NCBI GenBank assembly: GCA_963736195.1
Contig: CAVTNP010000004.1
Location: 627,077 to 691,076 of the forward strand
Length of the DNA stretch: 64,000 nt
Source of the DNA: Ignavibacteriota bacterium
GTDB lineage: Bacteria > Bacteroidota > Ignavibacteria > Palsa-1295
Reading direction: 5' to 3'
Position numbers and translations under genes: made by a program
Notes under the pieces: generated by a model
What the model was told of the DNA's origin: nothing
The model's input: only the letters and a program-made list of their open reading frames with translations
The model's database searches: none
In this document: one piece after another, positions 27,232 through 45,127 of the stretch
Layout: every line of letters starts with the position of its first letter
Position numbering within the stretch: the stretch's first letter is position 1

Positions 27232-27437
27232 GGGATTTCTGAAGATTCTTCAAAATAAAAAACTATGGCTTGCTTAAAGACAACAACTATCTTTCAATTT
27301 TCAAGCATTCGTACTTTTTTTTCATTATTTTCGTACAAAGCTTGCCGACGCATCTGTGCCCGCCGTTCGTGTTGACGGACCTTATACGCCTGACAAATTG
27401 GTCACTTTTTAGGAACGTATTTCAATTACTTCAAAAT

Positions 27438-30400
27438 ATGAAAAACTCAGCTCACAGCTCACAGCTCACAGCTCACAGCTCTCAGCACCACTCGCCACGC
27501 ACCCATAAGCGAGTAGCAATAATGTTAGCGCTCGTTCTTGCATGTACGATAAGCACCGGGGGGATGCGGGCGCAAATGAACGCGGAGTACAAATTCCGTC
27601 AGCAGAGCGTAGTGAATGGAACTGCTTACGACGCAAATGGCGACCCTGTTCCAGTATTGTCAATGGATTGCTTGGCAGCAAACGGCTATGGACAATGGGC
27701 CTTTAGCTCTACACCCGGCCAGGGAAGTTACGGCGGCATATCAGGAGCAAACGAGTTTCCTGCTGGCTGGTATCTTCTTGAAAATGGTATGTACGCGCCG
27801 AGCGTCGGATGGAAACCCATGGATGCTGTACATCACCCTTACTGCATTCCTCCGGGAGTAGTCCAATCCGGTCCGCTCAGCGGGGGCGCGCTACCAACGG
27901 AATTGGAAGTTACCGCCAATCTCGATGGAACGGAGGATTATGTCTGGCCAGATAGAACAACGTCCGGTGCGACATTTGTGGTCAATCAATTCACCACAAA
28001 TGATGTAGATATTTCCTTAGCCTTTCTCTCGAATCCAACGCCGTGGACGTCACTTTCTAACCCAGGCAACATGATGGTTGTGACAAACCCTATTCATAAC
28101 GCTAGTCCGGAAATTCCAACAAGCACTTCCTGCGGATGCTCCGGCCCCACCTGCGATCACAACGTAGTTACCACTTCACCATACCAAGATGAATTTCAGA
28201 TCACCTGTGACGCACGTTTCCTTTACATAGTGTGGTGCTCTTCTTCGAACTTATGCGCGGCGCCCACAAGCGAAGTATGGGCCACAGTGGTTTATAGGGC
28301 AACACTTACTACAGTTTCAGGTTGGCCAAAAGAACTTGGAAATGGACTAAAACCGACCGTTGCTTGCGACCCGCGAAACAACAGAACATCCAATAGCCCG
28401 GCATTCGAAGCTGCCTGGCTTCGACTTTCGCCTTCTCCAAACATCCGACGAGTTTCTTGCGTGGCTGGAGCGCTTGGAACTCCTTATTCGCTTGCAACAA
28501 CTTATGTCAATCCATCACTGATAACTATGAATTATTCAGGCGTCTCTCACGCTCGCATATTGGTAAGCAGTGCACCAGGCGTATCGCCGACTACTGCGCT
28601 CTATGCGATCGTTCAGGATGAAATGGGTCAGAACGCGCTCGTATTTTACGAATCCGCAAATTCTACCACCGCACCAGCGAACTATGTTGACGGTGTTCTG
28701 GAACCGCCCGATCCCTCGATGGTTTCGCTTGCCTTGACGCCAGGGCCGGTGGTAGATAATTTTATTACTGCCTTTGCTAACCCATACGATTATCTCGATA
28801 ATCATAGCGGATTAGATCTGCCTGATCAGTTCCACTGCGTGTATCAGATGACCACGCCTCCGACATACTCCAATCCACTGCAAATCGTACAGGGGTGCGA
28901 TAACAACACATTTGGTGTAGCGGACACGCGCCTGATTCTCAATCAGTCAGGTAGCGCACTCCTCGGAGACCCAACCAAATACGTTGCCGCCGTCAATCAA
29001 ATGGGTATCCATGTGCATTGGTTATCCAACGATGGTGGAGGAACGCATTACTATGCGCGTGACACTGGCAGGGCTTTCGATGAGCCAATAGAAGAAAATA
29101 CACTCGTCACTAATAGATGCACCGTCGCCAATGGAACGAGCCACGGTGGAACAGTGGGAGCAACTGTAACACGCGGTAGTCAGGTGACAGTCTGGAGCGA
29201 TCCAAACTACGGTCCGCCCGGTGTATCCGGCTCCAATTTTTACGGGCTCTATTCGCCGATAGATCTGACAACCGTCAACAAGTTTGTGGGAACCCTTAAT
29301 TTCGCCGGATCCAATGTAAAGCTTACTGTTGGAGGGGACACCTATTTCGACGACGATTGCGATTGCCAAATTCCCTTTCCTGCTTCACTTTCTGTGATGC
29401 CATTTATTGACTTCTATTTCAACAACGCCGGACAAGGAGTAACGATTGAACCCAATTGCAGTTTCGATTACTGGGGGCTTATCGCAACGCATGGAAGTAC
29501 AACTACAATTGCATCACCTTTTAACACCAACCCCTATAGTCCGAGCACTTCTACGATCGATCTCGAGGGATCTTCCCCCGGCTACCCAGCATATCTGAAC
29601 GTCCATGGCGGTTCCGATTTCTTCCTTGGGGTGTATACTAATCTCATTGAAAATAATAGTGTCACGAACGTCTTTGATGAGGCGCCGATGTACCCTACCA
29701 CGAACGGTACCCCGAATTCTCCGACGGCTACCGGGCACATGACGCTTTGGGCGTATGCAACACTTTCAAATAGCACGATCTATGGAAACGCCACGAATCC
29801 TACCAGCACCTATCCTGGTAATGATGTCATTCTAACAAGTTACGGGACTTTCTCGGCAACTACGGGTGGCGTTTCGAACAACACCAATACCGGCCTGAGC
29901 ACGATTCAATTTGGAGATTATAACGGAAACGGCTTTACCTCTGCGACAATTACAGATGGATTGTTCAGCGCTGCCAATATTCATGCGCTTAATGGAGCCT
30001 GCACGACAACACTTTCCGTTGAGGGTAGCTCGTTCGATCAGCTCCGTAATTATGGCATCTTGGCAGAGGGCCAAACCACCGGTGACCCTGCACAAAACAC
30101 AAGGCCCATCGTGACCATAAGTGGAAATTATTTTCTTGGGTTTGCACCAAATGCTGCCAGCGAAGTGTACCCATATCCTAACCTTGAGAGTGGTCTCGGA
30201 CCTCAGTCATCGCTCTTTGGCATTTGGCTCCGCAATTTCGCGCATATTCCTGAAAGTGATGTGGACTGCGATCTAGAGCCAGGACCATATATCCCTTGGA
30301 ACAAGATCGATGTTGAACTAAATCAATTCCAGGAAACAGGGAATTTTAATGATACCCTTGTGAATAATCTGTCGCTTGGCTCAGCACTATTTATGGACTT

Positions 30401-32273
30401 CGATGCTCCTCCAACTTCCGCAGCGATACTCCTTGAAAACACCTCAGCAAACGTTACGAGCAATACTATTGAGGACAATGGGTATTCAGTGGGGATTGGT
30501 GCTGTATCAGATGATCCCGGACATGGCTATAACACGCCTTTCACTTCCTCGCTCATTTGCAGTAATACTATTAGCGGACTGTCAAATCCGGGGTCGAGTG
30601 GCGGCGTCAACGAAGAACTGGGAATGTTTACTGCTGACTTCAATGGATTTGTCCAGAACAACACAATCACAGGTTGTGATAATGGGTACAGCGCGGGCGG
30701 GAACGGAAATGGAACAGGTGGAAATACCCCCACGCATTTCATCTGCAATACACTTTCTGGAAATCGCCATATTACTATTGATGTTAACGACTACGCCACT
30801 CTGGATATGTCAGGAATTCATAGCAACAATCCCAGTAGCTATGATTATCCAGGTTTCAACAACATATCAGGGCCTTCTACATGGATTGGACCCGATAACT
30901 ATTACAACGAGGTAAAATTGATACTCATCAGCCAATACTCAGGTGGGGATTTGGGCACAATTAATCTATCCAATTCCTTAAAAACATGGAATTGGGGTAC
31001 AAATAGTATAGGAACCTATTTTTACGGTTGCAACAGCATAACAGCAAGTAATCAAACCTCGGGCGTAAATCAGCCATTGATAGAGTACGACGGGTCGTCG
31101 AACATGGAAATCCGAAGTGTTGATTGGAATTACTTTGGCTATGGAATCGATCCGTCAAACGGTTCCAATCCGTGTAGCTCGGACCCATTCTGTTTGATAC
31201 CCACTCCCTGTTATACATCTAGCCCTTATTCTTGGCCCGCAAGTAGTGGTGTGACAAATGCCCTGAGGATCTCCTATTGCGCCACGCCAAACGCTACCGC
31301 ACCTGAATCCGCAACAGCATTACCACCCTGGGCTTCTGATTGTCAAAATTGGGTTGATTATCTGAATAATGGAACAAAGAAAAAGAGAATTGAACCTTTG
31401 GAGTCTGAGGACACAATAGTTCATGACTGTAGTTGGCTACTAAATTACGGGGTAAACGCAAATAGTTTTGATCAATATCAGGAAAGCTATGACACGCTCA
31501 TGAAATGCGTCGATAGCTGCGCTCAAGACCCAGAAACGGCTGGAGCATTTGGCCCAATGACAGATGATGTCGAGAATTTACTTCAACCAGCTAATTATAA
31601 TCAAGACTCGGCAATTTGGGCTCAATACCGGGCCTGGCTCTACAACGTGCTCTACCTGAACACCACAGATCCATCATATTTTTGTGCATGCGTTGGTCAA
31701 ATCTTTGGCTCTTTCGGTTACGCTATTGATGACACATCGGACCAGCAAGGTTTTATAGCCGATAATGAAAGCGTTGCATTCATGAGATGGGCACTTCTTA
31801 ACACAAATTGCGATTCCTCTTCGGAATGGGATAATTGGCAACACGTACGCAGGGAACAATTCCAAATGTGGTTACAAGATTCTCTCGATGGGATACATTA
31901 CCCGTTCGATACGACCATCCCAACGCTATCGCAAATAGGTTATGGCCTCGATACGCTGCTGGCAAAACATGCCTTTTATGCCAGCGTGAGCGAAACGCCA
32001 CAGCCGGGCATTATCTCCAACGCCGCCGCCTATCCCAACCCCACAGGCGAGGGAACGGTAATCTCGTTCGGCATCAGCAAAGAGGCGTATGTGAAGATCG
32101 AGCTATTCGATGTGCTCGGGCATGAAGTTGGCTCGGCTGGTTTCGAAAGCCTGTTCGAGCCGGGGAATAAATCGGTTCCCTTATCGCTGGCAGGGCTGCC
32201 ATCGGGCACCTACTTCGCGCGCATCCAAACCGCCTACGGCGAAGCGCAATCCGTTAAATTGGTGAAGCAATAG
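27438..32273 (+). CDS. Very large secreted protein with probable right-handed beta-helix region and T9SS C-terminal domain
   Basis: ORF open from 27270, probable start ATG 27438; signal peptide; Asn/Gly-rich repeats (SNTIED, NNTITG, CNTLSG); Cys-rich; C-terminal AYPNP...GLPSGTYF...KLVKQ. Confidence 0.85.
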   Translation: MKNSAHSSQLTAHSSQHHSPRTHKRVAIMLALVLACTISTGGMRAQMNAEYKFRQQSVVNGTAYDANGDPVPVLSMDCLAANGYGQWAFSSTPGQGSYGGISGANEFPAGWYLLENGMYAPSVGWKPMDAVHHPYCIPPGVVQSGPLSGGALPTELEVTANLDGTEDYVWPDRTTSGATFVVNQFTTNDVDISLAFLSNPTPWTSLSNPGNMMVVTNPIHNASPEIPTSTSCGCSGPTCDHNVVTTSPYQDEFQITCDARFLYIVWCSSSNLCAAPTSEVWATVVYRATLTTVSGWPKELGNGLKPTVACDPRNNRTSNSPAFEAAWLRLSPSPNIRRVSCVAGALGTPYSLATTYVNPSLITMNYSGVSHARILVSSAPGVSPTTALYAIVQDEMGQNALVFYESANSTTAPANYVDGVLEPPDPSMVSLALTPGPVVDNFITAFANPYDYLDNHSGLDLPDQFHCVYQMTTPPTYSNPLQIVQGCDNNTFGVADTRLILNQSGSALLGDPTKYVAAVNQMGIHVHWLSNDGGGTHYYARDTGRAFDEPIEENTLVTNRCTVANGTSHGGTVGATVTRGSQVTVWSDPNYGPPGVSGSNFYGLYSPIDLTTVNKFVGTLNFAGSNVKLTVGGDTYFDDDCDCQIPFPASLSVMPFIDFYFNNAGQGVTIEPNCSFDYWGLIATHGSTTTIASPFNTNPYSPSTSTIDLEGSSPGYPAYLNVHGGSDFFLGVYTNLIENNSVTNVFDEAPMYPTTNGTPNSPTATGHMTLWAYATLSNSTIYGNATNPTSTYPGNDVILTSYGTFSATTGGVSNNTNTGLSTIQFGDYNGNGFTSATITDGLFSAANIHALNGACTTTLSVEGSSFDQLRNYGILAEGQTTGDPAQNTRPIVTISGNYFLGFAPNAASEVYPYPNLESGLGPQSSLFGIWLRNFAHIPESDVDCDLEPGPYIPWNKIDVELNQFQETGNFNDTLVNNLSLGSALFMDFDAPPTSAAILLENTSANVTSNTIEDNGYSVGIGAVSDDPGHGYNTPFTSSLICSNTISGLSNPGSSGGVNEELGMFTADFNGFVQNNTITGCDNGYSAGGNGNGTGGNTPTHFICNTLSGNRHITIDVNDYATLDMSGIHSNNPSSYDYPGFNNISGPSTWIGPDNYYNEVKLILISQYSGGDLGTINLSNSLKTWNWGTNSIGTYFYGCNSITASNQTSGVNQPLIEYDGSSNMEIRSVDWNYFGYGIDPSNGSNPCSSDPFCLIPTPCYTSSPYSWPASSGVTNALRISYCATPNATAPESATALPPWASDCQNWVDYLNNGTKKKRIEPLESEDTIVHDCSWLLNYGVNANSFDQYQESYDTLMKCVDSCAQDPETAGAFGPMTDDVENLLQPANYNQDSAIWAQYRAWLYNVLYLNTTDPSYFCACVGQIFGSFGYAIDDTSDQQGFIADNESVAFMRWALLNTNCDSSSEWDNWQHVRREQFQMWLQDSLDGIHYPFDTTIPTLSQIGYGLDTLLAKHAFYASVSETPQPGIISNAAAYPNPTGEGTVISFGISKEAYVKIELFDVLGHEVGSAGFESLFEPGNKSVPLSLAGLPSGTYFARIQTAYGEAQSVKLVKQ
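27448..27482 (+). repeat. Heptamer tandem repeat (CAGCTCA)x4 plus one imperfect copy
   Basis: Direct reading of 27448-27482, just after the probable start codon. Confidence 0.9.
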
Positions 32274-32328
32274 AGATTTGCTCATTAGATGAACTCAGTT
32301 ACCACTATTATTGTAGTTAACAGTGGAA

Positions 32329-32940
32329 GGCCCTTCGAGGAAGATACTACGGGTGATCGATCGTTTCGCATGATCGATCATTCGAGATGAGCGATCATCT
32401 ACCGCAAGGCCTCCGGAGCACAACGAAAAAAGAACCAACAGTGAGCCATAGGGCGCTTGACGCTTGATTCCAACGACAGGCCCCGCTCCGCTATCGTAAG
32501 TTCGTGGATTATTTGCAATGAGCTAACCGCGCGTGTTCTTAGTTTAGGCGCGCACTCCTCGTGTATAACCAGCGATTTTACGGTAGCGGAGAACTCCGAT
32601 ACGCCGCGAGCGAGACCGTCGTTCGCAGCCGATGTAACGGGTCGTCACACGCTTCGATCTATCGAAGCAATGTGCCGGTTCTAAGCATCCGCAGGCTGAG
32701 GGACAGGGGAAGCCAGCGGTCTTTCGTGGACATAGAAATCCACACAAGGCAGGTGCCCGCTGATACTTGGGATATTACGGTTCTTTATTCCCTTGTACAG
32801 GGATGCCGTCACGAATATTGTTAAGATATTCGCCGGTATCTCGCCGGTGGAACTCACTGGCATGCCGCAGCGATTGCGCCATGTTCCGTTCCACCGGTCT
32901 CCGGAGCAAACTTTGGGGGACGTTTCTTCCTCGCAGGGCC
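32329..32940 (+). ncRNA. Candidate large structured non-coding RNA (~612 nt), family not recognised
   Basis: Ends pair (32329-32344 with 32925-32940, 15/16 bp); at least 10 internal helices; GNRA loops GCGA and GCAA; G-U wobbles on the + strand; no credible ORF. Confidence 0.7.
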
Positions 32941-32969
32941 GTCCTTTAGGCTAATTTAAAAAATGAAGT

Positions 32970-33995
32970 ATGAACGATGAAATGAGAACACGAATAATTC
33001 TATTCATCCTTCATGCTTCATTTTTTTTCGTGGTGTTTTCTTTGCAAAGCTTTGTGCGCGCGCAACCCGCTTCAAAGAAGCGATCAGCCGCAAAACCTGC
33101 AGAATTCAACTCTTCGCCTCGGTATTACCGACTCACCGGTTTGGGTAGTTCGCCTGGCGACAGCTCAAATAACTTCCCACACCCCACCGTCGTTCTAAGA
33201 GCATTAGATACTTCCAGCGTGAACATTCTTGTTCGATTTCCTGAACTTGGAATACTTGGCATCAAGGAAGATACTGTTCGTGTGCCAACGTTCAAAACTC
33301 ATGACAGCCTCATCGGCTACAAATCTCGCGAGCCGATGTATTTTCTTACGTACCCTAAAACGAAATATTTTCTATTTATCGATGTTTGGTCGAAAAATGC
33401 AGGGTCGAATGGCCATTTGACCCTGCTGGATTCTCGTCCTTTCGAGTACGATATGAACACTCAAGCATATCGCAAGGCGCGGTTCTCCTATGAACACGCA
33501 CCCACAACTGGCATGGGCAGCCCTACTTTGCGGCGCACTTTTCAACCGAAACTCTTGCCGTTTTCTCTTGGTACTAATCCAGGATGGGGCGCAACGGAAA
33601 AGCTTGATTCGAGTATGACGTATGCGCTTGTTTTTCATGATCCAACCCAGCCTGGGAAGCTCGATTTGTCATTGACCCTTCGGCCGGCAAACGTTGGCAC
33701 GGTCGATTCAGCAATGTGGAGCACGTTCAAAGCCAAAGCTGAAATTTCTTTTGGAGAGCATGGAGTTGCTACAAGCGCGATAGGATCGTTCGATGTTGCG
33801 GACACCTCAACGCGACATGTCATCAAAGCTGGCTATGAATTTATTTCGAGAAATGTCGATAGCTCGCTCGATTATGTTGCTGCATTCCTCACGCCGCGCG
33901 CCATACTGCTGCTGCTCGCGCCGATAGATCAGCCTAACCAGCAATTGCAGATCACCTATTTCGAGGGCATTGCGAGAAGCTTGAAACTGGACTGA
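32970..33995 (+). CDS. Hypothetical exported protein
   Basis: 341-aa ORF with signal peptide (VRAQ). Confidence 0.75.
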   Translation: MNDEMRTRIILFILHASFFFVVFSLQSFVRAQPASKKRSAAKPAEFNSSPRYYRLTGLGSSPGDSSNNFPHPTVVLRALDTSSVNILVRFPELGILGIKEDTVRVPTFKTHDSLIGYKSREPMYFLTYPKTKYFLFIDVWSKNAGSNGHLTLLDSRPFEYDMNTQAYRKARFSYEHAPTTGMGSPTLRRTFQPKLLPFSLGTNPGWGATEKLDSSMTYALVFHDPTQPGKLDLSLTLRPANVGTVDSAMWSTFKAKAEISFGEHGVATSAIGSFDVADTSTRHVIKAGYEFISRNVDSSLDYVAAFLTPRAILLLLAPIDQPNQQLQITYFEGIARSLKLD

Positions 33996-40122: not shown

Positions 40123-40194
<72 letters not shown>

Positions 40195-42273: not shown

Positions 42274-44115
42274 TCAGTGCATCATAACAAGCTTTGCCCG
42301 TGCTACGCCGGACGCACCATGAAGCTCCACCACATACACGCCAGCCGCGAGATTTGGAAAATAGATGCGCTGCTGTTCCGGCCCACCGAGCAATCTGATC
42401 TTCTCCGTTTGCACCGCCGTTCCTAATAGATCATAGACACATAGATCGGCTTCTTCGGCCTCAGGCCACACGATTGTTGCCACGCTCCACGTTTGTGTGG
42501 GATTTGGAAAAAGAGTGAGCGCCACACCATTCTGTGTCGGAATGTTCTTGACATCAGACCATTGCGAATTGAGATGGACTGGAATTTTATTTGTCCCATA
42601 CATCAGCCACAACGTTCCCTCATATCTGTTGTTGGTATTCTGTAAATCGGAATCTCCTGTGAAACCTGGACGACCGAGTAAAAAATCCTCTAAAGAATCG
42701 GAATTTGCGGTTAAGGTGTCGCCTCCACCAGCAGCGCTCGAAACATTATAAATGTCGATCTTGTCGTCGAGCGCATTGCCGGTTACATAAAAATTGTCCC
42801 ACCAAGTGTCACCGACGTCATTCCGTGCTTCCACAAGCAGGATGTGATTCCCTGTACCGGTCATGTCTCCTGCATCAATGAGATTGAATCCCCAATTATC
42901 TGTTCCGTATCCCAAAGCTGGTGGATGAATGACAAAAGCCGCGCTATCCAGCGTAAGGCGATGGGAACCGAAATCAGCACCGCCGCGAAAAATGAAAATA
43001 CCACCGTTGGTGGAATCGTTAAAGGTGTTAAAAACGGGCAAGAGATCGACCGACCGATCTCCCGGCGCTTTGGGGAGCGCCCTCATCGTAAAGAACGTTT
43101 GATTGGATGTTACACCCAATAAGTTCGGGCTTTGCCATTGAGCAAAGATCGTATCGTTCGAAATTGCCTGTGCAAATTGCTGAATAGAGAACGGCGGATC
43201 GTTCTTATAATAACAGAGATTTGTGTAATCCGCTGCAATCAAATCGTCCCGTCCCACGCCACGAAAATCTGCCTGTGTGCAGGCTCGGAAAGCCGCTGAA
43301 TTTGGGCTCATAGGATACATCAAGGCGGAAGTATCTTCAAAAGCTGTATCCTTGGAATAAAGTCCCCCTCCCCCTTTGAATAAAAGAGCGTATGCTGTAT
43401 CCTGATCGTTGTTGTAATCTGAGTAACACGTCGTCACAATGTCATCGATCGTATCATTCGTAAGGTGTGCAAAGTACGGGCTGATAAGATTCGGCTGAAT
43501 GCCGCCCTCCAAGAAATCCCCACCTCGAAGATTAGCTTTCAGAACGGAAAAGCGCGTACTGTCGTAATTGCCGTCATCGTCGGCCCAGTATATCCGCCAG
43601 TTACCAACGACAAAAATATCGAGATGCGCGCGATCCCGAAAATGACCGAAATGAAAACCGTTATTAAAATCGTTGACTTGCCCTCCGTCCGGGATAAACT
43701 TCTGAACATATTTGACCATGTTATGAAGATTGAATGAAGGACCGGTCAAAACTTGAGTGAACGGATCGAATGCGAACGGGGCAGCATTAAGATCTTCGAT
43801 GAGCATGTTTCCGAAGCCACCGTCTGATTTTGTGCCAAGGTTCTTTACGAATGAGCCGAGTTCCTGTTCGTTTACGCTCCCGTAGATCGTATCCATCTCC
43901 GATGGATCGCCGATCTGCGGGAAATAGCAATTGCTGTCGAGCGAGGGGTTTTTAAACGGCGGGTTGCTTTGGGCGCGTAGCAGAGATGGTGCAGCGAGAA
44001 TGAAGCCCGCCAACGCGAGAAGCTTAATTATGGGAAAAATGGAAATGGCAAAGGTGCTCTTGCTCGCTTCAACGCGGGAATTTTCGGCTCGATTGTATAG
44101 CACACTGCGCTTCAT
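42274..44115 (-). CDS. Secreted protein with FG-GAP-like repeats and T9SS C-terminal domain
   Basis: Signal peptide; ADFRGVGRDDL and AGDMTGTG motifs; LFPNP...NLAAGVY...KLVMMH. Confidence 0.8.
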   Translation of the reverse strand: MKRSVLYNRAENSRVEASKSTFAISIFPIIKLLALAGFILAAPSLLRAQSNPPFKNPSLDSNCYFPQIGDPSEMDTIYGSVNEQELGSFVKNLGTKSDGGFGNMLIEDLNAAPFAFDPFTQVLTGPSFNLHNMVKYVQKFIPDGGQVNDFNNGFHFGHFRDRAHLDIFVVGNWRIYWADDDGNYDSTRFSVLKANLRGGDFLEGGIQPNLISPYFAHLTNDTIDDIVTTCYSDYNNDQDTAYALLFKGGGGLYSKDTAFEDTSALMYPMSPNSAAFRACTQADFRGVGRDDLIAADYTNLCYYKNDPPFSIQQFAQAISNDTIFAQWQSPNLLGVTSNQTFFTMRALPKAPGDRSVDLLPVFNTFNDSTNGGIFIFRGGADFGSHRLTLDSAAFVIHPPALGYGTDNWGFNLIDAGDMTGTGNHILLVEARNDVGDTWWDNFYVTGNALDDKIDIYNVSSAAGGGDTLTANSDSLEDFLLGRPGFTGDSDLQNTNNRYEGTLWLMYGTNKIPVHLNSQWSDVKNIPTQNGVALTLFPNPTQTWSVATIVWPEAEEADLCVYDLLGTAVQTEKIRLLGGPEQQRIYFPNLAAGVYVVELHGASGVARAKLVMMH

Positions 44116-44218: not shown

Positions 44219-44497
44219 TCACTCCATTGCCTGTTCGAGTGTAGTAGAAAGCGTTTCGAGATCAAGCGCGATCCGATCGATCTCTCGTCGCTCGTTCTCT
44301 TTGGTATGAGCTTCCTGTTCCGCGAAGTTGAGGGCGGCAAGCACTGCCAGGGTTGTTGTAGATTGTGAGGGGAGCTTCGTCTGGAGTTCGCGCAATTGGG
44401 CATCGACATCCATTGCAAGCTGCTGGGTGAGCGCTTCATCATTCGAACGGAGCGGATACTCCGAACCCAGAATTGTAACTTTTACGGTTTGTGCCAT
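44219..44497 (-). CDS. zapA: Cell division protein ZapA
   Basis: VKVTILGSEYPL...LAVLAALNFAE; downstream of pheT. Confidence 0.9.
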   Translation of the reverse strand: MAQTVKVTILGSEYPLRSNDEALTQQLAMDVDAQLRELQTKLPSQSTTTLAVLAALNFAEQEAHTKENERREIDRIALDLETLSTTLEQAME

Positions 44498-44500
44498 AAC

Positions 44501-45127
44501 TTACTTTTGCTCCTCCGCTTGCATTCGTGACTCGATCATGGAAAGTTGATCGATTAGCTCGTCTACCGCTTTCGCAGCATTATCTCGATCCTCCGAGGTT
44601 AATCGCAACACATACTGCGCATCCATCCGTTCACCTTCCATGAGTTGCGTTCTCATTGCATCACGTTCAGAGCTGATCTTATTCAATCGCTCTTCAAGTT
44701 GAATATTTTTTTCCTTCCAATCTGTCAATTCAGCATGCCATGCGATCTCGAGCGCTTGCTGCTCTCGTAATTGAGAAGACCTACTGGCAAGCTCCGATTC
44801 TAAACGAGAAATAGTGTCGATCTGCTCGCTTAAGAGCCGCTCCTGGTCATTGAGCCGGGCGTTCAATTCATTAAATGCTTTTGATCGCTCTTCGCTTTCC
44901 AATGCAACGCTTGTCAGCAGGGATTCTCGCTGCTCGACGTTCTGGCGCTCCTGAGCATACAATGCCTCCAGATCGGCAAGCCGCTGTTCGAGCGTCTGTT
45001 TTTCTTGCCTGAGATGATGAATACGCTCCGTAGCGTCACGCGTGAGGCGCTCCAAACGTGAACTTGCTCTGGCAAGACGTTCGCGGCTAAGGCCTAATAC
45101 TACTTCACGGGATTCGGTTGGTGTCAC
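44501..45127 (-). CDS. Coiled-coil protein (between pheT and zapA)
   Basis: Heptad-rich E/R/L/Q composition; position matches the usual pheT-hypothetical-zapA order. Confidence 0.75.
   Translation of the reverse strand: MTPTESREVVLGLSRERLARASSRLERLTRDATERIHHLRQEKQTLEQRLADLEALYAQERQNVEQRESLLTSVALESEERSKAFNELNARLNDQERLLSEQIDTISRLESELASRSSQLREQQALEIAWHAELTDWKEKNIQLEERLNKISSERDAMRTQLMEGERMDAQYVLRLTSEDRDNAAKAVDELIDQLSMIESRMQAEEQK

What the first reader, a model, noticed from the sequence alone, without database searches (positions are those of the whole stretch)
32329..32940. Candidate large ornate non-coding RNA (~612 nt) of unrecognised family
Seen in sequence: the ~700-bp gap between the giant T9SS gene and the next CDS has no credible ORF but is densely base-paired. 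Closing stem GGCCCTTCGAGGAAGA 32329-32344 / TCTTCCTCGCAGGGCC 32925-32940 (15/16). 15-bp hairpin 32350-32384 with G-U pairs. AGATGA-GCGA-TCATCT 32385-32400 and CC-GCAA-GG 32402-32409 (GNRA loops). Long-range CTCCGGAG 32411-32418 / 32899-32906 and AAAGAACC 32429-32436 / GGTTCTTT 32779-32786. 15-bp helix 32486-32500 / 32577-32591 with two G-U pairs. Hairpins 32529-32553, 32651-32668, 32714-32762, 32789-32803 and 32804-32838. Perfect 10-bp CCGGTGGAAC 32844-32853 / 32888-32897. CAGTGAG 32439-32445 / CTCACTG 32853-32859 would cross the 32429/32779 helix, forming a pseudoknot. The mismatches resolve as G-U only on the + strand, which argues for a transcribed RNA rather than a DNA palindrome. I see no tmRNA, RNase P, SRP, 6S or group I/II intron signature. 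Inference: a stand-alone large RNA in the size class of OLE/ROOL/GOLLD/MISL, possibly a new class. The self-complementary CUCCGGAG octamers could alternatively mediate multimerisation (speculative).
Basis: partly seen in the sequence, partly recalled or inferred. Interest (0 to 1): 0.88.

Follow-up and report, generated by a model that had tools for sequence, protein, structure and literature searches.

The report
Giant insertion-expanded 6S RNA gene
The 612-base structured RNA is real, but it is most likely an oversized version of the well-known 6S RNA, which regulates RNA polymerase, with large extra folded domains added in one family of Kapaibacterium-like bacteria.

Summary
The + strand folds far better than shuffles (-274.3 kcal/mol, z -7.2). 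No Rfam family matches.

It is not a new RNA class. A model of its 3' core (R1) finds one copy in 29 of 35 genomes of its family, and weaker matches in 4 genomes of two sister families. Those 4 matches are about 200-nt RNAs just downstream of zapA that align full length to Rfam 6S. An independent 5'-core profile hits the same RNAs. The family itself has no recognisable 6S (0 of 16).

The helices and strands around the 6S central bubble keep their normal lengths. The 3' arm grows from about 35 to 160 nt, the apical region from 43 to 220 nt and the 5' arm from 32 to 141 nt. The added domains covary.

Metatranscriptome contigs of 576-666 nt from relatives cover the RNA at depth 47-340, and flanks at 0-6.5.

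Verdict: a 379-705-nt 6S (SsrS) variant. Binding to RNA polymerase is inferred, not shown.

The parts
32291..32296 (+). GAACTC box conserved upstream in relatives of the same genus; function unknown
   Evidence: Sequence; alignment of upstream flanks.
32306..32313 (+). TATTATTG, candidate Bacteroidota-type -7 promoter box (consensus TAnnTTTG is recalled, not from a call), 16 nt before the closing stem
   Evidence: Related boxes sit upstream in other genera, for example TATCTTTG and TAAATTTG. The sigma-70 consensus scan found none. Inferred.
32329..32347 (+). P1, 5' strand of the outer closing stem
   Evidence: Pairs with 32922-32940. 99.3% of cells paired and 5 of 18 pairs with compensatory change in 15 sequences. 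Other genera have entirely different sequences that still pair.
32350..32409 (+). 5'-arm expansion: hairpins 32350-32384, 32385-32400 (GCGA tetraloop) and 32402-32409
   Evidence: Fold. The number and sequence of these hairpins vary between relatives. The same short hairpin recurs elsewhere in the genome.
32411..32418 (+). P3, 5' strand (CUCCGGAG), inner closing stem
   Evidence: Pairs with 32899-32906. 88.2% of cells paired and 2 pairs with compensatory change.
32426..32436 (+). P4, 5' strand (AAAAAAGAACC): the helix next to the central bubble; predicted template for product RNA
   Evidence: Pairs with 32779-32789. Invariant AAAGAACC/GGUUCUUU in 14 of 14 short forms. It occupies the GAgCC position of Rfam 6S, where the short relatives' AGAACC aligns. 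The template role is inferred by analogy with E. coli (recalled).
32437..32450 (+). Central bubble, 5' strand (AACAGUGAGCCAUA)
   Evidence: Unpaired in the MFE. It corresponds to the 6S bubble in the cmscan alignments of the short relatives.
32451..32466 (+). Internal stem, 5' strand (GGGCGCUUGACGCUUG)
   Evidence: Pairs with 32745-32758. 96.2% of cells paired in 15 sequences; 88% paired with 2 compensatory pairs in 14 short forms.
32477..32484 (+). Apical stem, 5' strand (CAGGCCCC)
   Evidence: Pairs with 32706-32713. One pair is C-G in 7 sequences and U-A in 4.
32485..32705 (+). Apical expansion (about 220 nt), including the 15-bp helix 32486-32500/32577-32591, its tip hairpin 32529-32553 and hairpin 32651-32668
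   Evidence: The CAGGCC-to-GGAAG distance is 225 nt here; the median is 43 in 15 ordinary 6S RNAs. The base of the helix covaries (3 of 4 pairs).
32706..32713 (+). Apical stem, 3' strand (GGGGAAGC)
   Evidence: GGAAG is invariant in this family and in the class 6S RNAs.
32721..32744 (+). Genus-specific inserted hairpin in the 3' strand of the internal stem region
   Evidence: Present in 9 and absent in 6 of 15 genus-type sequences, and absent in all other genera.
32745..32758 (+). Internal stem, 3' strand (CAAGGCAGGUGCCC)
32759..32778 (+). Central bubble, 3' strand (GCUGAUACUUGGGAUAUUAC)
   Evidence: Its position relative to the 6S alignment of the short relatives and to the R1 model.
32779..32789 (+). 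P4, 3' strand (GGUUCUUUAUU)
32790..32898 (+). 3'-arm expansion found across the family: hairpins 32789-32803 and 32804-32838, and helix 32844-32853/32888-32897 enclosing UCACUG
   Evidence: The 3' arm is 156 nt here; the median is 35 in ordinary 6S. In the 10-bp helix 7 of 10 pairs have compensatory change. In the homologous domain of 11 short forms 20 of 30 predicted pairs have compensatory change.
32853..32859 (+). CUCACUG, possible pseudoknot partner of CAGUGAG (32439-32445) in the 5' bubble strand
   Evidence: 7 of 7 complementary. The 6 pairs tested are invariant in 15 of 15 sequences, so there is no covariation test. Speculative.
32899..32906 (+). P3, 3' strand (CUCCGGAG)
32922..32940 (+). 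P1, 3' strand; likely mature 3' end region
   Evidence: Metatranscriptome contigs end inside or next to this strand.

Best explanation
Window 32329-32940 (+) encodes the 6S RNA (SsrS) of this Kapaibacterium-like bacterium, in a form expanded about three-fold by insertions. The core is kept: a closing stem, the AAAGAACC/GGUUCUUU helix, a central bubble of about 14 and 20 unpaired bases, an internal stem and an apical stem. By analogy with characterised 6S RNAs, this core would mimic an open promoter, occupy the active site of the housekeeping sigma-A RNA polymerase holoenzyme in slow-growing cells, and be released when the polymerase copies the AAAAAAGAACC strand into a short product RNA. Three structured expansions are added to this core. 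A 3'-arm domain of about 125 nt is present in the whole family. The apical loop has grown to about 220 nt. Extra 5'-arm hairpins occur in this genus. Shown here: homology to 6S, the fold with covariation, one copy per genome, relocation away from zapA, and abundant discrete-length RNA contigs. Inferred: polymerase binding, product-RNA synthesis, the promoter, and any role of the added domains.
For: (1) Model R1, built only from the 3' core of 20 family members, finds one match per genome in 29 of 35 family genomes, in 8 of 9 genera.
(2) Of 135 genomes from other families searched, 4 match R1 at 28.5-36.2 bits. All 4 matches are 210-221-nt RNAs that align to Rfam 6S RF00013. Three align over model positions 1-187, at 33.7, 32.0 and 27.3 bits; the fourth aligns over 59-133 at 22.3 bits.
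(3) A profile of the family's 5' core, a region separate from R1, hits 7 of 16 RF00013-matching loci. All 7 hits lie inside the 6S interval on the right strand (E 1.9e-5 to 0.034 in 51 kb).
(4) R1 with filters off gives 7 hits in 12 further RF00013 loci, and 6 of them lie inside the 6S interval on the right strand.
(5) RF00013 finds 6S in 17 of 151 genomes of the class (5 over cut-off) but in 0 of 16 of this family. It finds none in the own genome, or in 5 family genomes that also lack R1 hits.
(6) Segment lengths. Bubble-5' plus stem has medians of 41 and 45 nt in the two family groups against 44 in ordinary 6S. Stem plus bubble-3' is 42 against 39. The 3' arm is 156-162 against 35.
(7) Covariation. 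In 14 short forms 91.9% of cells are paired and 22 pairs show compensatory change, against 10.8 +/- 1.9 in shuffles (0 of 500 as high; slid controls 40-55% paired). In 15 genus-type sequences 94.9% are paired with 16 compensatory pairs against 6.0 +/- 1.7 (0 of 500; slid controls 42-49%). In the 3'-arm domain 20 of 30 predicted pairs are compensatory.
(8) RNA contigs of relatives (under 90% alike), 590, 666 and 576 nt long, cover 32408-32906 at word depth 117, 69 and 47. A fourth run has pieces at 313-340. Flanks are at 0-6.5.
(9) RNase P RNA and a tmRNA-like RNA lie elsewhere in the genome.
(10) zapA lies directly upstream, on the same strand, of 13 of 16 short 6S RNAs. This matches the ZapA->ssrS array described for proteobacteria (PMC7641849, passages seen).
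Against: RF00013 itself does not match the window RNA even at E<=10, nor 10 family loci.
Model R2, built from 15 ordinary class 6S cores, gives no hit in the window with default filters. With filters off its best hit is only 9.5 bits (E 0.45). That hit starts at the right place (32425), but its 3' half is aligned to the wrong sequence.
Sequence-only profiles of ordinary 6S are weak against the genome. The 16-sequence profile's only hit is inside the RNA at E 0.0034. A profile without the four R1-found RNAs misses it, and half-profiles give E 0.77 or nothing.
The link to 6S is therefore transitive, through sister-family RNAs that themselves score below the Rfam cut-off of 46.4 bits.
The gene is not next to zapA. 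zapA is at 44219-44497 (-), with only about 103 nt before the next gene, and none of 18 family loci has zapA nearby.
The size is 612 nt, against 160-200 nt for 6S (PMC8414754, passage seen).
If the CAGUGAG/CUCACUG pairing forms, part of the bubble would not be open.
Four of 14 genomes of the same genus have neither this RNA nor a 6S hit.
Contigs cannot show strand, ends or absence of DNA.
Confidence: 0.8

Rival explanations
1. It descends from 6S but no longer works as a sigma-A holoenzyme decoy. The added domains and the move away from zapA mark a new function. Examples would be binding core polymerase as Ms1 does in actinobacteria, scaffolding another protein complex, or a 6S whose bubble is gated by the 3' domain.
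For: All family members are 379-705 nt, against 201-251 nt for the 6S RNAs of the class outside this family.
The added 3' domain is conserved and covaries.
CUCACUG in that domain is complementary to the 5' bubble strand.
The gene has left the zapA locus.
Ms1 is a precedent for a longer 6S-like RNA with a different polymerase partner (PMC9130861, passage seen).
Against: The parts of 6S that contact polymerase in characterised systems keep their length and near-invariant sequence across 8 genera. These parts are the bubble and its flanking helices.
No second 6S that could carry the ancestral function was found.
Nothing here tests binding.
Confidence: 0.13
2. It is a new class of large ornate RNA unrelated to any known family. 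The resemblance to 6S would then be chance or convergence.
For: No Rfam family matches. A class-specific 6S model does not reach significance on the window. Its size and complexity are in the OLE/ROOL range.
Against: Two separate cores match the same short 6S RNAs in the right order and on the right strand. Core segment lengths agree. The family otherwise lacks 6S, while sister families have it.
Confidence: 0.04
3. The extra length is selectively neutral clutter: small mobile or duplicating hairpins that accumulate in tolerant loops of a normal 6S RNA.
For: The hairpin GGATGAGCGATCATCC has 8 exact copies in the genome (0.0017 expected) and 79 hits with up to 2 mismatches on both strands. One lies in the tmRNA-like locus, and a related copy lies in the RNase P RNA locus. 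In relatives such hairpins differ in number and position within this RNA.
Against: This can explain the genus-specific 5'-arm and some peripheral hairpins only. The 3'-arm domain and the base of the apical expansion are present across genera and covary, which indicates a maintained structure.
Confidence: 0.03

Closest known systems
6S RNA / SsrS (Rfam RF00013)
   Same: It has a closing stem, central bubble, internal stem and apical stem. It shares conserved motifs with the class's Rfam-matching 6S RNAs: AAAGAAC, CAGGCC, GGAAG, CCC and GGUUCU. There is one copy per genome, and it is abundant in metatranscriptomes.
   Different: It is 612 nt (379-705 in the family), against 160-200 nt (PMC8414754 passage) or 201-251 nt in this class. 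It has three structured expansions, is not matched by RF00013, and is not adjacent to zapA.
Ms1 RNA of actinobacteria
   Same: It is a 6S-like RNA longer than ordinary 6S, with extra hairpins at the ends (about 300 nt against 180 nt; PMC9130861 passage).
   Different: Ms1 binds core polymerase and is restricted to actinobacteria. There is no sequence relation: no Rfam family other than tRNA reaches threshold in the window. The RNA here is two to three times larger and demonstrably related to its class's 6S.
Large ornate bacterial RNAs (OLE, ROOL, GOLLD, raiA)
   Same: Similar size class, dense conserved secondary structure, stand-alone gene, unknown role of most domains.
   Different: It matches none of their Rfam models. 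Unlike them, its core can be traced to a family with a known mechanism. No evidence of homo-oligomer contacts was found.

Membership tests
6S RNA (SsrS) | Match to the Rfam covariance model RF00013 at its gathering score (46.4 bits) | tested here: not met
   No RF00013 hit in window 32200-33050 at E<=10, in the whole genome, or in 10 loci of the family. The large insertions probably prevent alignment.
6S RNA (SsrS) | Sequence and structure homology to accepted 6S RNAs of related organisms | tested here: met
   R1 (3' core) and a 5'-core profile both hit RNAs that RF00013 matches, at the right place and on the right strand. Five class 6S RNAs are over the Rfam cut-off. The four directly linked ones score 22-34 bits.
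6S RNA (SsrS) | Rod architecture: closing stem, large central bubble, internal/terminal stem | tested here: met
   The flanking helices are kept and covary. Bubble-flanking segment lengths equal those of ordinary 6S. The 5' bubble strand is unpaired in the MFE. Whether the bubble is open in vivo cannot be told.
6S RNA (SsrS) | Length about 160-200 nt | tested here: not met
   612 nt here and 379-705 nt in 29 family sequences. The length criterion comes from a PMC8414754 passage.
6S RNA (SsrS) | Conserved gene neighbourhood (zapA upstream in this class and in proteobacteria) | tested here: not met
   zapA is upstream in 13 of 16 ordinary 6S loci of the class but in 0 of 18 family loci. In the window zapA is at 44219-44497 (-), with no room for an RNA gene after it.
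6S RNA (SsrS) | Binds housekeeping RNA polymerase holoenzyme and templates product RNA | not testable with these tools
   Needs pull-down or in vitro transcription. The invariant AAAAAGAACC strand is the predicted template, by analogy only.
6S RNA (SsrS) | Abundant stable transcript of discrete size | tested here: inconclusive
   RNA-library contigs of 576-666 nt from relatives sit at depth 47-340, with flanks at 0-6.5. Contigs show neither strand nor true ends, and DNA carry-over cannot be excluded.
OLE / ROOL / GOLLD / raiA / HEARO large RNAs | Match to the family's Rfam model | tested here: not met
   cmscan of the window against all 4227 Rfam 15 families: only a tRNA reaches gathering score, and nothing relevant appears at E<=10.
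RNase P RNA / tmRNA | It would be the genome's only copy of that RNA | tested here: not met
   RNase P RNA is at G000:C4:782042-782541 (193.4 bits). A tmRNA-like RNA is at C4:776559-777003 (39.4 bits, below the 47-bit cut-off).

The most novel reading that the evidence does not exclude
The family-wide 3' domain is a built-in switch. Its loop CUCACUG pairs with CAGUGAG in the template-side strand of the central bubble, so this 6S alternates between a closed, polymerase-blind form and an open promoter mimic. A ligand, a protein or temperature might control the switch. That would make it the first 6S RNA with its own regulatory domain.
Probability: 0.15. Interest if true: 0.7.

Novelty: new variant of a known kind. 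Interest (0 to 1): 0.55.

Why it matters
6S RNA is one of the most widespread bacterial regulatory RNAs and is regarded as a uniform rod of about 160-200 nt. The longest described relative, Ms1, is about 300 nt.

Here a whole bacterial family carries a 6S homologue of 379-705 nt, with conserved, covarying extra domains. Two consequences follow:
- The 6S scaffold can carry large added modules.
- Standard annotation (Rfam) silently misses 6S in such lineages. Genomes scored as lacking 6S may simply have expanded forms.

It gives a natural system for asking what extra RNA domains can add to a polymerase decoy. It also cautions that a large, ornate, unrecognised RNA can be an overgrown member of a known family.

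My searches found no paper on 6S in Kapabacteria or Ignavibacteria, or on 6S RNAs of this size. Subscription journals and supplementary files were not searchable.

Tried and rejected
Direct recognition as 6S failed.
- RF00013 gave nothing on the window, the own genome or 10 family loci.
- RF01685 (6S-Flavo) gave nothing, but its controls were silent, so that result is uninformative.
- Model R2, built from ordinary class 6S cores, gave no hit with default filters. With filters off it gave 9.5 bits, E 0.45, with only the 5' half placed correctly.
- nhmmer profiles of ordinary 6S against the whole genome were weak. One hit lay inside the RNA at E 0.0034. A profile without the four R1-found RNAs missed it. 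Half-profiles gave E 0.77 or nothing.

Rejected identities:
- RNase P RNA and tmRNA: both lie elsewhere.
- A decayed protein gene: no ORF over 87 aa in the gap.
- A cis-leader of the downstream gene: downstream genes differ. In three other-genus loci inspected (L016, L027, L029) the downstream ORF begins with a GxxGSGKST motif that I read by eye as coaE. In the window it is an unrelated 341-aa ORF with no Pfam hit.
- A sigma-70 promoter or a simple intrinsic terminator: the scan found no promoter and only one terminator-like site, inside the RNA.

Collection scans:
- The genome contigs pattern scan gave 14 loci. Twelve carry Kapaibacterium, Ignavibacteria/Ignavibacteriota or 'Bacteroidetes' MAG titles and contain BLAST matches to the RNA. 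The Roseivirgaceae and Opitutia loci had no BLAST match and were dropped as chance.
- The metagenome pattern scan gave 50 loci. Only 12 matched the family profile, and the other 38 were dropped. Of the 12, L078 and L066/L085 are identical to loci already held. L064 and L102 looked by eye like copies of L014 and L027.

I looked by eye for a covarying partner of the 5' bubble strand in genera where it differs and found none convincing. RNAduplex over-extended when used to find closing stems, so boundaries were set by eye. PF12072 (RNase Y N-terminal domain) was not found in the own genome; I did not pursue this.

Sequencing runs: 20 runs hold part of the stretch and 11 are on record as RNA, all with small shares. 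Supplementary files of papers were not opened.
Full report
OBSERVATION

The region between the 1667-aa ORF with a Por_Secre_tail domain (27270-32273) and the next ORF (from 32970) has no ORF over 87 aa.
- closing stem, 15 of 16 paired
- CTCCGGAG pair, 8 of 8
- AAAGAACC/GGTTCTTT, 8 of 8
- the 15-bp helix, 15 of 15 with 2 G-U
- the 10-bp helix, 10 of 10
- CAGTGAG/CTCACTG, 7 of 7
- 7 of the 8 local hairpins; the 2-bp CC-GCAA-GG does not fold alone

As RNA the + strand folds to -274.3 kcal/mol, against -206.5 +/- 9.4 for 20 shuffles (z -7.23). The - strand gives -245.8 (z -5.94). Rfam 15 gives only a tRNA at 40123-40194 at gathering score and chance-level matches at E<=10.

CONSERVATION

By BLAST the element occurs in 11 of 14 other genomes of the same genus. 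One of these 11 (G001) matches only a short hairpin, and fragments match in three other genera of the family. Record titles of matching public contigs name Candidatus Kapaibacterium, Ignavibacteria/Ignavibacteriota or 'Bacteroidetes' MAGs.

A pattern scan of metagenome contigs added 12 true members among 50 pattern hits. A covariance model of the 3' core (R1; 20 sequences, 93 positions) then found exactly one match in 29 of 35 genomes of the family, in 8 of 9 genera. Full-length members, delimited by their closing stems, are 504-705 nt in the window's genus type (15 sequences) and 379-438 nt in other genera (14 sequences).

THE TURN

In a sample of 151 genomes of the class, R1 also matched 4 genomes in two other families at 28.5-36.2 bits. 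Those loci hold RNAs of 210-221 nt. In three of them I read the flanking genes as a zapA-like gene upstream and an RNase Y-like gene downstream (by eye).

Against Rfam they match 6S (RF00013). Three align over the whole model at 33.7, 32.0 and 27.3 bits, and the fourth over model positions 59-133 at 22.3 bits, against a cut-off of 46.4.

RF00013 also finds 6S RNAs of 201-251 nt in 17 of 151 genomes of the class, 5 of them over the cut-off, but in 0 of 16 genomes of the window's family. It finds none in the window's genome.

Those ordinary 6S RNAs carry the same motifs as the large RNA: AAAGAAC, CAGGCC, GGAAG, CCC(A) and GGUUCU.

Two further links are independent of the first R1 result:
- A profile of the family's 5' core hits 7 of 16 RF00013 loci, all inside the 6S interval and on its strand (E 1.9e-5 to 0.034).
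- R1 with filters off gives 7 hits in 12 RF00013 loci that it had not found before, and 6 of them lie inside the 6S interval and strand (10.8-17.1 bits).

zapA lies directly upstream, on the same strand, of 13 of 16 of these ordinary 6S genes. This is the arrangement described for proteobacteria (PMC7641849, passages).

ANATOMY IN 6S TERMS

Measured between shared anchors:

| Segment | Ordinary class 6S (n=15), median | Family, other genera (n=14), median | Window's genus type (n=15), median | Window RNA |
|---|---|---|---|---|
| Bubble-5' plus internal stem | 44 | 45 | 41 | 41 |
| Internal stem plus bubble-3' | 39 | 42 | 69 (one inserted hairpin) | 66 |
| 3' arm | 35 | 162 | 156 | 156 |
| Apical region | 43 | 73 | 220 | 225 |
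| 5' arm | 32 | 57 | 141 | 101 |

So the parts that define 6S are preserved and three sites have expanded.

The skeleton is supported by covariation.
- In 14 short forms, 49 pairs are 91.9% paired and 22 pairs show compensatory change, against 10.8 +/- 1.9 in shuffles (0 of 500 as high). Slid controls are 40-55% paired.
- In 15 genus-type sequences, 86 pairs are 94.9% paired with 16 compensatory, against 6.0 +/- 1.7 (0 of 500). Slid controls are 42-49% paired.
- The closing stem has unrelated sequences in different genera that still pair.
- The family-wide 3' domain is itself a conserved fold: 20 of 30 predicted pairs are compensatory in 11 sequences.

The AAAGAACC/GGUUCUUU helix never varies, so it is neither supported nor refuted by covariation.

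RESULTS AGAINST

- RF00013 does not see the large RNAs at all.
- A class-specific 6S model reaches only 9.5 bits on the window, with the 3' half misplaced.
- Sequence profiles of ordinary 6S are marginal on the genome.
- The gene is not at zapA. zapA sits at 44219-44497 on the - strand, with about 103 nt to the next gene.
- Four of 14 genomes of the same genus, and two others in the family, show neither R1 nor (for the five I tested) RF00013 matches. I cannot explain this.

The assignment is therefore by transitive homology and architecture, not by the Rfam test.

EXPRESSION

Twenty public runs hold part of the stretch, and 11 are RNA libraries, all with small shares. I laid four metatranscriptomes from four studies at 80% likeness.
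- In three, single contigs of 590, 666 and 576 nt cover 32408-32906 (one from 32415 to 32914 with a diverged middle) at word depth 117, 69 and 47.
- The fourth has pieces at 313-340.
- Flanking bins are 0 to 6.5, and only in one run.

The contigs are less than 90% alike to the window, so they are relatives. Their lengths equal the RNA, and two end within or beside the 3' closing strand. This fits an abundant, discrete RNA, as 6S usually is. Contigs cannot give strand or true ends, and DNA in the libraries cannot be excluded.

On the DNA, a TAnnTTTG-like box lies 16 nt upstream of the closing stem (TATTATTG, 32306-32313), with counterparts in other genera. The consensus is recalled from knowledge of Bacteroidota promoters. 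The sigma-70 scan found nothing.

MECHANISM

Most likely (0.8) this is the lineage's 6S RNA. From what is established for E. coli and B. subtilis 6S (abstracts seen; details recalled):
- It would bind the sigma-A holoenzyme as an open-promoter mimic.
- It would be released when the polymerase transcribes a short product RNA from the 5' bubble and closing-stem strand.
- Here that strand is the class-invariant AAAAAAGAACC.

These steps are inferred.

The role of the expansions is open. The varying 5' hairpins look like copies of a short GNRA hairpin that is over-represented genome-wide and also sits in the tmRNA-like and RNase P loci, so some growth may be neutral. The 3' domain is conserved and may matter. 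Its CUCACUG could pair with the bubble's CAGUGAG, but both are invariant, so this is untested.

The 5' and 3' copies covary with each other and lose self-complementarity in three relatives.

COMPARISON AND NOVELTY

- The closest known family is 6S/SsrS. The core and probable mechanism are the same. The RNA differs by a two- to four-fold greater length, three structured expansions, failure of the Rfam model and a changed locus.
- Ms1 is a precedent for a longer 6S-like RNA (about 300 nt; PMC9130861 passage) but is unrelated in sequence and lineage.
- OLE, ROOL, GOLLD and raiA share only size and ornateness, and their models do not match.
- I found no paper on 6S in this lineage or on 6S RNAs of this size. 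These searches cover open-access text only.

I rate it a new variant of a known kind, of moderate interest.

Noticed in passing
G000 genome-wide; e.g. window 32385-32400; G000:C4:776790; G000:C1:501163-501246: A 16-nt GNRA hairpin, GGATGAGCGATCATCC, has 8 exact copies in the 3.7-Mb genome (0.0017 expected) and 79 hits with up to 2 mismatches on both strands. Some lie in tandem clusters. One lies inside the tmRNA-like locus, and a related copy lies inside the RNase P RNA locus. It looks like a small repeat that settles in loops of stable RNAs.
   Followed up: partly
G000:C4:782042-782541 and G000:C4:776559-777003 (outside the window): The RNase P RNA match spans 500 nt for a 367-position model. 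The tmRNA-like match spans 445 nt for a 374-position model and scores below the cut-off (39.4 against 47 bits). Other stable RNAs of this genome may also carry insertions.
   Followed up: no
window 44219-45127 (-) and 42274-44115 (-): zapA (92 aa) follows a 208-aa ORF whose sequence looks coiled-coil and ZapB-like (judged by eye). It is followed after about 103 nt by a 613-aa ORF that I read by eye as T9SS-type.
   Followed up: partly
genomes G001, G002, G003, G006 (same genus), G043, G016: These six family genomes show no R1 match. Two of them are a one-contig genome 93% complete and a genome 99% complete. The five tested with RF00013 show no 6S either. The cause may be loss, a more divergent form or an assembly gap.
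   Followed up: partly
L118:1761-1833; similar in L119 and L120, between the RNA and the downstream coaE-like ORF: Long perfect palindromes of repeated AGTGCTGAG / AAGAACT units lie just downstream of the RNA in one genus. They caused spurious microRNA matches in Rfam.
   Followed up: no
L014 (G011), inside the loop of the 10-bp helix homologue: A tandem repeat of about 16 nt (GCCTCGCTGCTCTACA, 3-4 copies) is inserted in the 3' domain of one relative.
   Followed up: no
window 32955-33030: A long AT-rich hairpin (ATGAAGTATGAA...TTCATGCTTCA) followed by eight T overlaps the predicted start of the 341-aa ORF at 32970. The motif recurs downstream of the RNA in several relatives. It may be a terminator, or the ORF may start later.
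   Followed up: no
L064 / L014 (G011) and L015 (G018), upstream of the closing stem: In two relatives about 60-70 extra nucleotides with their own hairpins lie between the promoter-like TTTGTAG box and the closing stem. This suggests a processed 5' leader.
   Followed up: no
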